Below, in pieces: positions 11,558 through 14,767 of a stretch of 64,000 nucleotides of DNA; positions within the stretch are counted from its first letter, which is position 1, and each line of letters begins with the position of its first letter. The DNA is from Candidatus Latescibacterota bacterium. Its GTDB lineage: Bacteria; Latescibacterota; UBA2968; GCA-2709665. The DNA lies in the NCBI GenBank assembly GCA_963662665.2, contig CAXXJS010000031.1:64001-128000 (forward strand), in the 5' to 3' direction. Position numbers and translations under genes: made by a program. A model generated the notes under the pieces. That model had not been told where the DNA came from. It was given only the letters and a program-made list of their open reading frames with translations, and ran no database searches.

Positions 11558-11614
11558 GAAAACCCCCTTATCGATCAGCGGAATTGCGTCTTCAGAGTGC
11601 AGGACGCCAGCCCT

Positions 11615-11797
11615 TGACAGCCGGTTGAAAAAGTCCATCCGGGCTGCGACCTGCCTCGCGGGCTTCAGCAGGCAATCCGGCTGTTGTGGCCGAATGACTG
11701 CACTGTGCCACCTCACCGAATCCCACAATCCGACTCGGTCACCCGCCCTGTCTTCGGTCACGATTGCCCGGGAGCAACATTCGCAACAGACTGTTAA
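11615..11797. mobile_element. MITE-like element, copy 1 (degenerate)
   Basis: Ends TGACAGCCGGTTGAAAAAGTCC and CAACAGACTGTTA; internal similarity to 30919-31249 and 52559-52657. Confidence 0.7.
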
Positions 11798-11824
11798 TCT
11801 TTGGATTTTGAACGCCATTGTCAA
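11796..11824 (-). promoter_or_regulatory. Possible sigma70 promoter for hemL
   Basis: TTGACA-17 nt-AAGATT on the minus strand; the -10 match is weak. Confidence 0.35.
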
Positions 11825-11840
11825 GTGGCGATTTTTGGCC

Positions 11841-11868
11841 TTGCAACAAAACCGCCGAAACGTATATT
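11841..11868 (+). promoter_or_regulatory. Sigma70-type promoter for the tRNA-like gene and possibly uvrA
   Basis: TTGCAA-16 nt-TATATT, 14 nt upstream of the tRNA-like element. Confidence 0.6.
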
Positions 11869-11882
11869 TGTCCAACGCCTTC

Positions 11883-11948
11883 GCGGCAGCAGCTCACATC
11901 CGGCTTCGGACCGGACGGTTGGGGGTTCGAGTCCTCTCTGCCGCACCA
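11883..11948 (+). tRNA. D-arm-less tRNA-Arg(UCG)-like gene (atypical tRNA or pseudo-tRNA), 66 nt
   Basis: Acceptor GCGGCAG/CTGCCGC plus ACCA; anticodon arm TCCGG-CTTCGGA-CCGGA; variable loop CGGTT; T-arm GGGGG-TTCGAGT-CCTCT; D region reduced to CAGCTCACA. Confidence 0.85.
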
Positions 11949-11950
11949 TC

Positions 11951-11980
11951 CAAAGCCCCGGTCACCCGATCGGGGCTTTG
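11951..11980 (+). terminator. Hairpin / weak intrinsic terminator after the tRNA-like gene
   Basis: CAAAGCCCCGGTC-ACCC-GATCGGGGCTTTG with only a short U tract. Confidence 0.65.
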
Positions 11981-11995
11981 CCTCCCCGATCCTCC

Positions 11996-14767
11996 ATGCC
12001 TCGTACCAACGACGCCATCCGAATCAGGGGCGCCCGTCAGCATAACCTGCGGGGTCTCGACCTCGATATACCTAAAAACCGGTTCGTGGTCATCACGGGG
12101 CCCTCCGGCTCAGGGAAATCCTCGCTCGCGTTCGATACCATTTACGCTGAAGGGCAGCGCAGGTACGTGGAAGCGATGTCCGCCCACGCGCGCCGTTTCC
12201 TGGAGGTAATGGAGAGGCCCGACGTGGAGAGTATCGATGGCCTTTCTCCCGCCGTGGCCATTCAACAGCGCCGCGCTTCCGGAAACTCCAGATCGACGGT
12301 TGGCACCCTTACGGAGATCCACGACCATCTCAGGATACTCTTCGCCCGCGCCGGTCTGCCGCATTGCCCGAACTGCGGCAACCCCATTGCCTGCCAGACC
12401 GTCGGTGAGATCGTCGACACCGTACTCGGCCTGCCGGACGGCGCGCGGCTGCGGATTCTCGCGCCCGGGATACGCAACCGGAAGGGCAGCCTCAACCAGG
12501 AACTGGAACGCCTGCGGCGCGACGGATACGTGCGCGTGCGAATCGACGGACGCGACCGCGCACTGGACGAAGAGATTCGCCTGGATCCAACGCGGACGCA
12601 CACCGTCGAGGCGGTTGTCGACCGTCTGGTCGTCCGCCCGAAAATCGAGCGCCGGCTGGCCGACTCGCTGGAAACCGCGCTGGCCCTTTCCGGCGGTATC
12701 GTCGTCCTGGATATCCTCGAAGACCGTGAATTGAGCTTTTCCACGCAATTCACCTGCAGAAACTGCAACATCGGTTTTGAGGAACTGACGCCTCGTATGT
12801 TCTCGTTCAACAGCCCGTACGGCGCTTGTCCGTCCTGCGACGGCATAGGCATGAAGGCCGATATCGACCCTGACGGGATCGTTCCGGACAAGAGCCGTTC
12901 AATCGCGGAGGGCGCCATCGCTCCATGGGGAGTCCCCAGAGGACGCGCGACGCTCGATTTGCTGCAACGCCTCGCGGACCGATACCGTTTCGATCTCGCC
13001 GCGCCATTCGGTTCTCTTTCACCCGGAGCGAGGGAGGCCATTCTGTGGGGCGATGAATCCCTCCGGTTCGACGGAGTAATCCCGCCCCTCAACAGGCGGA
13101 TTGCGGATGCCGCGTCGGACCATGGCGGATCCAGGCCGGATTCGTACGTCCGCAACGCAGCATGTAAAGACTGTGCCGGCGCCAGGTTGCGGACACAGGC
13201 CCTGGCAGTCAGAATCGCCGAAAAAAACATCGCACAGGTTGCGGCGATGTCCATCGATCAGGCCTTCGAATTCACGGAACGTCTGAAGGGAACGTTGGCG
13301 CCCCCGGAGGTCGTTGACCCGATTCTACTTGAAATCCGCAACCGGCTTGCCTTCCTGAGGGACGTGGGTGTGGGTTATCTTACCCTTGAACGAAACGCGG
13401 CATCGCTCTCGGGCGGCGAAACGCAGCGTATCCGCATGGCCACGCAGATCGGCGCGCGCCTGTCGGGGGTGCTCTACGTTCTGGACGAACCCAGCGTTGG
13501 ATTGCATCCAGGAGACAACCGCAAACTCATCCATACGTTGCAGACGCTGCGCGACCTCGGCAATACGGTTCTGGTTGTTGAGCACGATCGGGAAACCATG
13601 CTTGCCGCGGACCATCTGATCGACCTCGGTCCGGGAGCGGGTGAGAAGGGGGGCGAACTCATGGCTCAGGGTACCGCCCTGGAAATTATGGCGGACGGAA
13701 AATGCCTCACGGGCGCGTACCTCTCCGGCCGGAAGTCCATCCCCCCGCCTCCGGACAGACGGCAACCCTCCGGCCGGATCGTCTTGAAGGGCGCGCGGGG
13801 GCACAATCTCAAGTCCATCGACGTCGCCCTCCCTCTGGGCATTCTTGTGTGCGTGACCGGTGTCTCCGGATCCGGAAAGAGCACTCTGATAAACGGTACG
13901 CTCTATCCGGCACTGGCGAACAGGCTGCACAACGCCGCGGTCAAACCCCTTGAACACGACGGTGTCGAAGGCATGTCACAAATCGACAAGATCATCCGAA
14001 TCGACCAGGCGCCGATCGGCCGGACACCCAGGTCAAATCCTGCCACCTACACCGATCTCTTCACAGACATCCGCGAACTCTACGCGCAGCTTCCGGAATC
14101 CAGGGTTCGGGGCTATACGCCCGGGCGATTCAGCTTCAACCTGAAGGGCGGGCGTTGCGAGCCCTGCCAGGGCGACGGCCTGCGACGCGTTGAAATGCAC
14201 TTCCTTCCCGACGTCTACGTGACCTGCGACGCCTGCGGGGGAAGCCGGTACAACAGGGAGACCCTGGAAATTCGTTTCAAGGGCTGTTCGATCGCCGACG
14301 TACTGGACATGACGACGGAGAGGGCGCACACCTTCTTCAGAGATATTCCGGGCGCCCGGCGGAAACTGAAAACGCTATTGGAGGTGGGTCTGGGATATAT
14401 CCGGCTGGGACAATCGGCAACCGCGCTTTCCGGAGGTGAAGCGCAACGCATCAAACTGGCCTCCGAACTTTCCCGTGTGGCCACGGGAAAAACCATGTAT
14501 ATTCTGGACGAGCCGACCACCGGGCTGCACTTCGAGGACATCCGGTCGCTCATCGCCGTTCTGGACCGGTTGGTCGACAAGGGCAACTCCGTCGTTGTGA
14601 TCGAACACAACCTGGACGTGGTCAAACGGGCCGACTGGATTGTCGACCTCGGTCCCGGAGGGGGAGATTCCGGCGGCCGGGTCATCGCCGAGGGGGCCCC
14701 GGAGCGTGTTGCGGCGGCACCGGCCTCCCGGACCGGCCGCTTTCTAAAAGAGGTGATCGCACTATGA
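11996..14767 (+). CDS. uvrA: Excinuclease ABC subunit A
   Basis: IRIRGARQHNL, GPSGSGKSSLAFDTIYAEGQRRYVE, zinc fingers, two ABC signatures LSGGE, GRTPRSNPATYT. Confidence 0.97.
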   Translation: MPRTNDAIRIRGARQHNLRGLDLDIPKNRFVVITGPSGSGKSSLAFDTIYAEGQRRYVEAMSAHARRFLEVMERPDVESIDGLSPAVAIQQRRASGNSRSTVGTLTEIHDHLRILFARAGLPHCPNCGNPIACQTVGEIVDTVLGLPDGARLRILAPGIRNRKGSLNQELERLRRDGYVRVRIDGRDRALDEEIRLDPTRTHTVEAVVDRLVVRPKIERRLADSLETALALSGGIVVLDILEDRELSFSTQFTCRNCNIGFEELTPRMFSFNSPYGACPSCDGIGMKADIDPDGIVPDKSRSIAEGAIAPWGVPRGRATLDLLQRLADRYRFDLAAPFGSLSPGAREAILWGDESLRFDGVIPPLNRRIADAASDHGGSRPDSYVRNAACKDCAGARLRTQALAVRIAEKNIAQVAAMSIDQAFEFTERLKGTLAPPEVVDPILLEIRNRLAFLRDVGVGYLTLERNAASLSGGETQRIRMATQIGARLSGVLYVLDEPSVGLHPGDNRKLIHTLQTLRDLGNTVLVVEHDRETMLAADHLIDLGPGAGEKGGELMAQGTALEIMADGKCLTGAYLSGRKSIPPPPDRRQPSGRIVLKGARGHNLKSIDVALPLGILVCVTGVSGSGKSTLINGTLYPALANRLHNAAVKPLEHDGVEGMSQIDKIIRIDQAPIGRTPRSNPATYTDLFTDIRELYAQLPESRVRGYTPGRFSFNLKGGRCEPCQGDGLRRVEMHFLPDVYVTCDACGGSRYNRETLEIRFKGCSIADVLDMTTERAHTFFRDIPGARRKLKTLLEVGLGYIRLGQSATALSGGEAQRIKLASELSRVATGKTMYILDEPTTGLHFEDIRSLIAVLDRLVDKGNSVVVIEHNLDVVKRADWIVDLGPGGGDSGGRVIAEGAPERVAAAPASRTGRFLKEVIAL

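What the first reader, a model, noticed from the sequence alone, without database searches (positions are those of the whole stretch)
11841..11998. D-arm-less tRNA-Arg(UCG)-like RNA with its own promoter, directly upstream of uvrA
Seen: 11883-11948 folds as a perfect 7-bp acceptor stem (GCGGCAG/CTGCCGC) with A-CCA, a perfect anticodon arm (TCCGG/CCGGA, loop CT-TCG-GA), a 5-nt variable loop and a T-arm with TTCGAGT. Only CAGCTCACA lies between the acceptor and anticodon stems, so about 11 nt (D-loop and 3' D-strand) are missing and position 8 is C. It has a TTGCAA-16-TATATT promoter and a weak terminator hairpin, and uvrA starts 15 nt later with no Shine-Dalgarno sequence. Known: D-arm-less tRNAs are typical of animal mitochondria, not bacteria; D-loop A20 is a major ArgRS identity element; U8 pairs with A14; CGA is usually read by tRNA-Arg(ICG), so a UCG isoacceptor can be dispensable. 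Inference: either a recent pseudo-tRNA, or a repurposed tRNA mimic (decoy, RNase P/Z processing signal for the uvrA mRNA, non-ribosomal role). The intact stems together with the U8 change fit selection on a truncated fold.
Basis: partly seen in the sequence, partly recalled or inferred. Interest (0 to 1): 0.85.

Follow-up and report, generated by a model that had tools for sequence, protein, structure and literature searches.

The report
Disabled arginine tRNA gene heading uvrA
An arginine tRNA gene that has lost one arm of its cloverleaf sits between a promoter and the DNA-repair gene uvrA; it can hardly decode any more, yet a dozen related uncultured bacteria have kept it, partly conserved, probably because it is part of the uvrA transcript.

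Summary
Window 11883-11948 (+) is a 66-nt tRNA-Arg(UCG)-like sequence with intact acceptor, anticodon and T arms. It lacks 11 nt of the D-arm. A promoter-like site lies upstream; a hairpin and uvrA (ATG 11996) lie downstream. Contigs from runs of two studies reproduce it exactly, though one may be the source.

It is the remnant of a real gene. At the same site, 2 of the 15 species of the genus hold a full 77-nt tRNA-Arg(UCG). One has that tRNA split by a 163-nt repeat element. Twelve carry 66-68-nt D-arm-less versions. The deletion removed A20, the main ArgRS determinant. The genome has tRNA-Arg(ACG) and TadA, so the isoacceptor is probably redundant.

The relic is not decaying freely. Outside the D remnant it changed about a third to a half as fast as silent sites. 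But there is no covariation support, and 7 of 12 alleles score below Rfam's tRNA threshold.

Three genera have the tRNA 47-78 nt from uvrA, leaving little room for another promoter.

Best reading (0.5): a dead tRNA kept in the uvrA leader, its acceptor/T-arm/CCA part possibly still a processing signal. A working D-armless tRNA is unlikely. This genome's allele does not fit the species tree, which is unexplained.

The parts
11819..11840 (+). Conserved A/T-containing block directly upstream of the -35 hexamer (UP-element-like)
   Evidence: 1 parsimony step in 22 sites over the 11 species of the truncated clade, against 1.3-1.9 steps per site in neutral comparators. Similar sequence precedes the tRNA in two other genera. 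Its function is inferred.
11841..11868 (+). Promoter-like site TTGCAA-16-TATATT
   Evidence: The only sigma-70-like site in 11600-12100; shuffles give a mean of 0.2. The -10 hexamer is invariant and the -35 hexamer has one variable column in the 12 truncated-allele species. No transcription start was mapped.
11883..11948 (+). D-arm-less relic of tRNA-Arg(UCG), 66 nt. Acceptor 11883-11889 / 11938-11944; D remnant 11890-11898; anticodon arm 11899-11915 (anticodon 11906-11908); variable loop 11916-11920; T arm 11921-11937; ACCA 11945-11948
   Evidence: Rfam RF00005 at 38.7 bits. ARAGORN -mt calls a D-loop tRNA-Arg(tcg). The orthologous full 77-nt tRNA lies at the same site in L006 and L008.
11952..11979 (+). 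G+C-rich hairpin with a short U run, resembling a terminator or attenuator, between the tRNA relic and uvrA
   Evidence: 13-pair stem in the fold. 95.2% of cells are paired across 15 species, but this is no better than shuffles. Evolves at 0.66 steps per site.
11980..11995 (+). 16-nt C-rich leader before the uvrA start, with no Shine-Dalgarno-like motif
   Evidence: Read from the sequence. Evolves at 0.56 steps per site.
11996..14767 (+). uvrA (923 aa)
   Evidence: Pfam UvrA_inter 2.4e-33, UvrA_DNA-bind 1.8e-18 and ABC_tran.

Best explanation
This is the remnant of the tRNA-Arg(UCG) gene that heads a compact promoter-tRNA-hairpin-uvrA unit.

A deletion of 9-11 nt removed the D-loop and the 3' strand of the D-stem. 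That took out G18, G19 and A20. The RNA therefore probably can no longer form the tRNA elbow or be charged by ArgRS, so it is a dead tRNA rather than a working D-armless one. The loss is tolerable because tRNA-Arg(ACG) together with TadA can read CGA.

The relic persists because it lies in the leader of uvrA. There is very little room for a separate uvrA promoter.

Its acceptor stem, T-loop, 3' CCA and trailer are kept below the neutral rate. I infer that this acceptor/T-arm half still acts in cis as a tRNA-type processing site. RNase P would cut at its 5' end, and an endonucleolytic cut behind the CCA would release the uvrA mRNA with the hairpin at its 5' end. In some species this role is itself being lost.

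Shown: the origin from a tRNA gene, the deletion, the probable redundancy, the conserved architecture and the reduced substitution rate. Inferred: co-transcription, processing, and any benefit to uvrA expression.
For: Origin. The same site in L006 and L008 holds a 77-nt tRNA-Arg(tcg) that scores 68.1 bits in Rfam. L012 holds it split by a repeat element. The other 12 of 15 species hold 66-68-nt versions.

Lost determinants. Passages of the review PMC9976931 name A20 as the main determinant for bacterial ArgRS. A20 lies inside the deleted segment.

Redundancy. The own genome has Arg tRNAs acg, ccg, tct and cct and none with tcg. It encodes TadA at 168.7 bits against a cut-off of 150.

Not a decoder across the clade. 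The anticodon loop is changed in L007 and L009 and the T-loop in L003 and L013.

Architecture. The tRNA 3' end lies 47 nt (this genus), 57 nt and about 78 nt from the uvrA start in three genera. A hairpin fills most of that gap, and a similar promoter lies upstream.

Transcription. Contigs from RNA libraries of two studies (X15 record 4, X17 record 6) run from the D-loop of a full-length relative through the hairpin into uvrA. This is a weak hint of co-transcription.

Constraint. The 57 sites outside the D remnant take 0.79 parsimony steps per site. Fourfold uvrA sites take 1.32 (190 sites) and nearby spacers take 1.58 (43 sites). Only 0.00025 of resamples reach the body value. Each truncated allele differs from the full tRNA at 4-9 of 57 sites, where 16-23 changes are expected from third-position path lengths. 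The CCA and the 3 nt after it never change. The acceptor 5' strand (0.43 steps per site) is an island inside a fast-evolving 5' segment (about 2 steps per site).

Not coding. Body lengths of 66, 67, 68 and 77 nt are not multiples of 3 apart.
Against: There is no covariation support. 90.7% of cells are paired against 90.4% in shuffles (208 of 500 shuffles do as well). 19 cells are unpaired, against 2 with changes on both sides.

7 of 12 truncated alleles fall below Rfam's gathering score, and 5 of those have no match at E <= 1.

L013 has 3 mismatches in its 7-pair acceptor stem, yet its uvrA frame is open over the 485 codons read. So the element is dispensable at least there.

The three-arm fold is -23.5 kcal/mol against a minimum free energy of -28.8, and the anticodon and T helices have pair probability <= 0.04.

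The rate argument assumes one old deletion at the base of the truncated clade. If losses were several and recent, the apparent conservation would be left over from a working tRNA. The lineages also share branches and are not independent.

The RNA-library contigs come from relatives with the full-length tRNA and may be DNA carry-over.

No cleavage site, transcription start or stable RNA was observed.
Confidence: 0.5

Rival explanations
1. It is a plain tRNA pseudogene with no remaining role. It is transcribed or not as chance has it, and survives only because it sits between an indispensable promoter and uvrA, where large deletions would be harmful. The reduced rate would then reflect younger or repeated deletions, or gene flow between species, rather than selection on the RNA.
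For: There is no covariation. 7 of 12 alleles are below the Rfam threshold. The acceptor stem is broken in L013 while its uvrA frame is open over the part read.

The D remnant and the 5' strand of the anticodon stem evolve at or above the neutral rate, at 2.18 and 2.0 steps per site. Homoplasy in the body (15 of 35 variable columns) is like that of fourfold sites (51 of 138).

The tRNA has been inactivated in at least three ways in this genus: by deletion, by a repeat-element insertion in G007, and by the out-of-place allele here. That fits a dispensable gene.
Against: Under one old deletion, 4-9 observed changes against 16-23 expected in every lineage is hard to obtain neutrally. All 12 alleles keep 66-68 nt, the CCA and the trailer. 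None of the 12 has lost the body altogether.
Confidence: 0.32
2. It is a stable trans-acting tRNA-like RNA, released from the transcript and used outside translation, for example as a decoy or regulator. Alternatively, it is a truly functional D-armless tRNA-Arg.
For: ARAGORN's mitochondrial model accepts it as a D-loop tRNA-Arg(tcg). The anticodon loop CTTCGGA is kept in 9 of 12 alleles and the RCCA end in 12 of 12. A non-translating pseudo-tRNA with a cellular role is on record in Bacillus cereus (PMC3399842; only the search listing and the start of its abstract were seen).
Against: A20, G18 and G19 are gone. The anticodon is changed in 2 of 12 alleles and the T-loop in 2 of 12. The genus shows graded decay. 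The three-arm fold is not favoured thermodynamically. D-armless tRNAs are described in the passages read only for metazoan mitochondria, where partner proteins are adapted to them (PMC7609411 passages; abstracts in the listing). No such partner was looked for here.
Confidence: 0.07
3. It is an assembly or binning artefact, such as a chimera of two co-occurring species inside a conserved tRNA.
For: The genome is a draft of 66 contigs with 5.4% estimated contamination. The allele is discordant with the species tree.
Against: Contigs of 13.4 and 28.7 kb from runs of two studies carry the identical 701 nt, though one may be the source. The stretch shared between a full-length allele of this clade and a truncated allele of the other clade at the 5' junction is only about 10 nt.
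Confidence: 0.01

Closest known systems
t-elements of plant mitochondria: tRNA-like, non-canonical cloverleaves in mRNA leaders and trailers that direct RNase P/RNase Z cuts (PMC1920247; abstract and passages read)
   Same: A tRNA-derived structure with a well-kept T arm and acceptor stem sits in the leader of a protein-coding gene. The proposed role is to define mRNA ends through tRNA-processing enzymes.
   Different: This case is bacterial. Its descent from a named, still-extant tRNA gene at the same site is traceable within one genus. No RNA ends have been mapped. The CCA is encoded here, which may change which 3' nuclease acts (recalled, not tested).
Mixed tRNA-mRNA transcription units of E. 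coli, such as secG-leuU, processed by RNase P after removal of the terminator (PMC2241853, abstract read). The tufB operon example is recalled from memory.
   Same: A tRNA and an mRNA lie on one transcript with a Rho-independent-type hairpin nearby, and tRNA processing separates them.
   Different: Here the tRNA lies upstream of the mRNA and is disabled in 13 of 15 species, so only the cis role could remain.
Bacterial pseudo-tRNAs, such as tRNA-Other of Bacillus cereus (PMC3399842; search listing and start of abstract only)
   Same: A tRNA-shaped gene that does not serve in translation.
   Different: tRNA-Other is reported to act in trans and flanks a genomic island. This relic lies in a gene leader, lacks a whole arm, and has no shown activity.
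D-armless tRNAs of metazoan mitochondria (PMC7609411 passages; PMC4013460 listing)
   Same: The secondary-structure shape is the same: acceptor, anticodon and T arms with a short connector in place of the D arm. ARAGORN -mt accepts it.
   Different: Those tRNAs are charged and decode with adapted partner proteins. Here the orthologues vary in anticodon and T-loop and decay in part, and the bacterial Arg identity element A20 is deleted.
mascRNA/menRNA tRNA-like 3' modules (Rfam RF01684)
   Same: A tRNA-like module embedded in a longer transcript and recognised by tRNA-processing enzymes (function recalled from memory).
   Different: The match is only 20 bits against a gathering score of 42.5, so this is not a member. 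That family is vertebrate and nuclear.

Membership tests
Canonical bacterial tRNA (tRNA-Arg) | Four-armed cloverleaf with a D-arm (G18 G19, U8-A14) | tested here: not met
   11 nt of the D-arm are absent and position 8 is C. ARAGORN in bacterial mode finds nothing.
Canonical bacterial tRNA (tRNA-Arg) | Score above Rfam RF00005 gathering threshold | tested here: met
   38.7 bits against 29. Only 5 of the 12 truncated orthologues pass.
Canonical bacterial tRNA (tRNA-Arg) | Arginine identity set: A20, C35, U/G36, A/G73 | tested here: not met
   C35, G36 and A73 are present. A20, the main determinant (PMC9976931 passages), lies in the deleted segment.
Canonical bacterial tRNA (tRNA-Arg) | Aminoacylation and decoding | not testable with these tools
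   Needs an ArgRS assay or tRNA sequencing.
tRNA pseudogene | Descent from a functional tRNA gene by a disabling lesion | tested here: met
   The full 77-nt orthologue lies at the same site in L006 and L008 and in outgroup genera.
tRNA pseudogene | Neutral decay after inactivation | tested here: inconclusive
   The rate is about 0.3-0.6 of neutral outside the D remnant. But there is no covariation, 7 of 12 alleles are below the Rfam threshold, and the age of the deletion is assumed.
tRNA-like cis processing element (t-element type) | Lies within the transcript of the neighbouring gene | tested here: inconclusive
   Only 47 nt, mostly hairpin, separate it from uvrA. RNA-library contigs of two studies bridge tRNA, hairpin and uvrA, but in full-length relatives, and DNA carry-over is not excluded.
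tRNA-like cis processing element (t-element type) | Acceptor stem, T arm and 3' RCCA retained | tested here: met
   In this genome all pairs are intact. Across the 12 alleles the acceptor is 94% paired, the T stem 90% paired and RCCA is kept in 12 of 12. L013 is an exception for the acceptor stem.
tRNA-like cis processing element (t-element type) | Cleavage by RNase P and/or a 3' endonuclease at its borders | not testable with these tools
   The runs laid were contigs and cannot show RNA ends.
D-armless (D-replacement-loop) tRNA | Three-arm shape accepted by a D-loop tRNA model | tested here: met
   ARAGORN -mt calls a D-loop mtRNA-Arg(tcg), 66 bases, at 11883-11948.
D-armless (D-replacement-loop) tRNA | Conserved anticodon and function in translation with adapted partners | tested here: not met
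   The anticodon is altered in L007 and L009 and the T-loop in L003 and L013. Adapted partner proteins were not searched for.

The most novel reading that the evidence does not exclude
This would be a bacterial counterpart of the plant-mitochondrial t-element. A tRNA-Arg(UCG) gene lost its D-arm and its decoding role but has been kept by selection across a genus as a tRNA-shaped module at the head of the uvrA transcript. There it would set the 5' end, stability or level of the repair mRNA, or be released as a stable tRNA-like RNA.

The allele in this genome matches the consensus of the truncated clade exactly, although its sister species keep the full tRNA. That would then be either a transfer of a favoured allele between species, or parallel evolution towards the same truncated form.
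Probability: 0.3. Interest if true: 0.65.

Novelty: new variant of a known kind. Interest (0 to 1): 0.45.

Why it matters
This locus catches a tRNA gene at several stages within a single genus: intact, split by a repeat element, and truncated with graded decay. That makes it a natural series for asking what remains selectable in a tRNA once decoding is lost.

It also points to an order-wide linkage of tRNA-Arg(UCG) with uvrA in an uncultured lineage. In three genera the spacing suggests that the repair gene depends on a tRNA promoter. If the relic is a processing module, it would extend the t-element principle from organelles to free bacteria.

If it is only a pseudogene, the finding is still useful as a caution. 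A good Rfam tRNA score here (38.7 bits) does not mean a working tRNA.

Tried and rejected
More alleles from metagenomes. One scan of metagenome contigs with a 19-nt conserved pattern gave 4 loci. Three were unrelated and one (L057) had the same leader and relic as L011 over the stretch printed, so nothing new came of it.

Covariation. Neither the three-arm structure nor the hairpin does better than shuffles.

Thermodynamics. The relic alone has z = -1.73, and 9 of 200 shuffles fold as well. The three-arm fold is not the predicted fold.

ARAGORN at a relaxed threshold (-ps80) gave only an odd antisense call.

RNA evidence for the truncated allele. None of the RNA-library contigs laid carried it; they came from relatives with a full D-loop. 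Absence of cover says nothing either way.

A second copy of the gene. No other strong match to the relic exists in the own genome or in any of the 14 other species of the genus; the next hits are 29-nt T-arm matches to other tRNAs. A dissimilar tRNA-Arg(UCG) in the complete relatives was not searched for separately.

A coding extension of uvrA over the relic (the open frame from 11801). Rejected because body lengths differ by 1, 2 and 11 nt between species.

A second promoter inside the relic. The scan found none.

Excess homoplasy as a sign of recombination within the truncated clade. It is no higher than at fourfold sites.

Deletions as scars of imprecise loss of the repeat element. The 5' edge coincides with the G007 insertion point, and L009 and L011 carry 8 nt resembling the element's end. 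This was not tested further and is left open.

Earlier findings of this scan: three look-ups returned nothing.

Literature: the searches listed no paper on a D-arm-less tRNA relic or a tRNA-uvrA unit in bacteria. Only titles and abstract starts were screened, and supplements were not seen.
Full report
WHAT IS THERE

Window 11883-11948 (+) reads as a tRNA with a perfect 7-pair acceptor stem, A73-CCA, a 5-pair anticodon stem with the loop CTTCGGA (anticodon TCG), a 5-nt variable loop and a T arm with TTCGAGT. Only 9 nt lie where positions 8-26 should be. Rfam's tRNA model matches it end to end at 38.7 bits (gathering score 29). This is the only family match in the 64-kb window, and 13 D-arm positions are replaced by 4 nt.

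ARAGORN in bacterial mode finds no tRNA in the window. In its metazoan-mitochondrial mode it calls exactly this stretch a 66-base 'D-loop' tRNA-Arg(tcg).

Upstream lies the only sigma-70-like site of the region, TTGCAA-16-TATATT at 11841-11868. Downstream lies a 13-pair hairpin at 11952-11979. After 16 C-rich bases with no Shine-Dalgarno-like motif comes uvrA, with its ATG at 11996 (923 aa; UvrA domains). On the other side, on the minus strand, lies a class-III aminotransferase gene.

Contigs of 13.4 and 28.7 kb from runs of two studies carry the 701 nt around the site without a single difference, though one of them may be the source of this assembly.

WHERE IT COMES FROM

All 15 species genomes held for this genus carry the same promoter-tRNA(-like)-hairpin-uvrA locus. 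They are metagenome-assembled genomes whose records are labelled Candidatus Latescibacterota or Gemmatimonadota.

- Two species (L006, L008) have a normal 77-nt tRNA-Arg(tcg), at 68.1 bits in Rfam.
- One species (L012) has that tRNA split in the D-loop by a 163-nt element. The element has 15-nt inverted ends and a 3-nt duplication, and occurs 15-48 times in each of the five genomes searched.
- Twelve species, including this one, have 66-68-nt versions that lack 9-11 nt, always starting after A14.

Genera outside this one have the full tRNA.

A uvrA protein tree rooted with four outgroups puts the three full-length holders and this genome in one clade. The other eleven truncated genomes fall in its sister clade, with support 0.96. 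The simplest history is one old deletion at the base of that sister clade.

WHY IT IS NOT A WORKING tRNA

The deleted segment holds G18, G19 and A20. A20 is the main determinant for bacterial ArgRS (PMC9976931, passages read).

Among the 12 truncated alleles:
- The anticodon loop is altered in L007, L005 and L009, and the anticodon itself in L007 and L009.
- The T-loop is altered in L003 and L013.
- The acceptor stem has three mismatches in L013.
- Only 5 of 12 reach Rfam's threshold, 2 are below it, and 5 give no match at E <= 1.

The own genome has Arg tRNAs with anticodons acg, ccg, tct and cct and none with tcg; it is a draft estimated 92% complete. It encodes TadA at 168.7 bits against a cut-off of 150. 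So CGA can probably be read through inosine. CGA makes up about 11% of Arg codons by a crude count over 955 long open frames.

WHY IT IS NOT SIMPLY ROTTING EITHER

I counted parsimony steps per site on the species tree of the eleven vertically related truncated genomes.

| Region | Sites | Steps per site |
|---|---|---|
| Body outside the D remnant | 57 | 0.79 |
| Fourfold sites of uvrA | 190 | 1.32 |
| Three nearby spacers | 43 | 1.58 |
| D remnant | 11 | 2.18 |
| 5' strand of the anticodon stem | 5 | 2.0 |
| Acceptor 5' strand | 7 | 0.43 |
| T-loop | 7 | 0.43 |
| Anticodon loop | 7 | 0.57 |
| Anticodon stem 3' strand | 5 | 0.40 |

Only 0.00025 of resamples of fourfold sites reach the body's value. 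The CCA and the three bases after it never change.

Measured against third-position path lengths from the clade's ancestor, each allele shows 4-9 differences from the full tRNA where 16-23 would be expected. Those lineages share branches, and the test assumes the deletion is as old as the clade. All twelve alleles keep 66-68 nt.

Against a structural reading, three results stand:
- Pairing is no better than column shuffles: 90.7% against 90.4%, with 208 of 500 shuffles as high. 19 cells are unpaired against 2 changed on both sides.
- The three-arm fold is 5.3 kcal/mol worse than the predicted fold.
- Homoplasy in the body matches that of fourfold sites.

THE SETTING POINTS TO THE uvrA TRANSCRIPT

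In 4 of the 5 outgroup genomes tested, tRNA-Arg(UCG) lies directly upstream of uvrA. This includes a genome of another family. In two other genera of the same family the gap is only 57 and about 78 nt, and is filled by a hairpin. A similar promoter and upstream block precede the tRNA there. In a fourth genus and in the other family the gap is longer and holds a proper terminator.

In this genus the gap is 47 nt. The promoter's -10 hexamer is invariant, and the 22-nt block before the -35 hexamer changes once in eleven species.

Two short contigs from RNA libraries of different studies run from the D-loop of a full-length relative through the hairpin into uvrA. This is a weak hint of co-transcription. 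DNA carry-over cannot be excluded, and neither contig carries the truncated allele.

MOST LIKELY MECHANISM

One promoter drives tRNA-Arg(UCG) and uvrA. The D-arm deletion ended decoding. The body remained because it is the uvrA leader.

I infer that its acceptor/T-arm half with RCCA still draws RNase P-type processing, and that a cut behind the CCA leaves the hairpin at the mRNA's 5' end. I give this reading 0.5.

The closest known parallel is the t-element of plant mitochondria (PMC1920247, abstract and passages read). The nearest bacterial precedents are mixed tRNA-mRNA operons such as secG-leuU (PMC2241853, abstract read).

The main rival is a pseudogene with no role, whose apparent conservation reflects younger or repeated losses. 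I give it 0.32. A trans-acting or decoding D-armless RNA gets 0.07, and an artefact 0.01.

AN UNEXPLAINED POINT

This genome sits inside the full-length clade, as sister of L008 with support 0.91. It shares both flanks with its sisters: 28 nt on the 5' side and 43 nt on the 3' side are identical to L006.

Yet its tRNA body differs from theirs only by the 11-nt loss, T8C, T29C and A41G. That is exactly the consensus of the truncated clade.

Two explanations remain open. Either a short patch was imported from an unsampled donor, or the same changes arose again. In both cases an undecayed truncated allele has been maintained somewhere, which is the best argument for selection on it.

A second open point concerns the repeat element. 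Every deletion starts at the spot where the element sits in L012. L009 and L011 also carry 8 nt there that resemble the element's end. The deletions may be scars of its imprecise loss.

VERDICT

This is a new variant of known kinds (tRNA pseudogene, tRNA-like leader element) and is of moderate interest.

Noticed in passing
L012 (G007) 1324-1489; other copies include L029-L037; own genome G000:C38:13813-13977 and C10:152124-152287: A 163-nt miniature inverted-repeat element with 15-nt inverted ends and mostly TNA-type 3-nt duplications. It gives 15-48 matches per genome in the five genomes searched. In G007 it splits the D-loop of tRNA-Arg(UCG) exactly where the D-arm deletions of the other species begin.
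   Followed up: partly
window about 11612-11795: A second repeat-like insertion with inverted ends lies between the aminotransferase gene and the tRNA promoter. It is present in this genome and in L007, L010, L012, L013 and L017, but absent from their sister species L002, L016, L006 and L008. The site therefore gains or loses it repeatedly.
   Followed up: no
L011 (G006), uvrA about nt 365 from the start: A 19-nt gap relative to L013 breaks the uvrA frame (7 stops in the first 486 codons). A metagenome contig with the same leader (L057) has the 19 nt and an open frame. This is either a strain-specific lesion or an assembly error.
   Followed up: partly
G016, G017, G015, G021, G022 (L062-L065): Besides the canonical uvrA, these genomes encode open frames of about 1900-1950 aa that hold two UvrA-like halves in tandem, at 42-47% identity to the query.
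   Followed up: no
L061 (G022), tRNA 3' end: In the other family the orthologous tRNA-Arg(UCG) does not encode CCA. The genera of this family do.
   Followed up: no
own genome, ARAGORN list: The draft encodes a tRNA-SeC(tca) and a tmRNA with tag ADDTYAMAA. Several standard tRNAs (for example Trp and Tyr) were not found, as expected for a genome estimated 92% complete.
   Followed up: no
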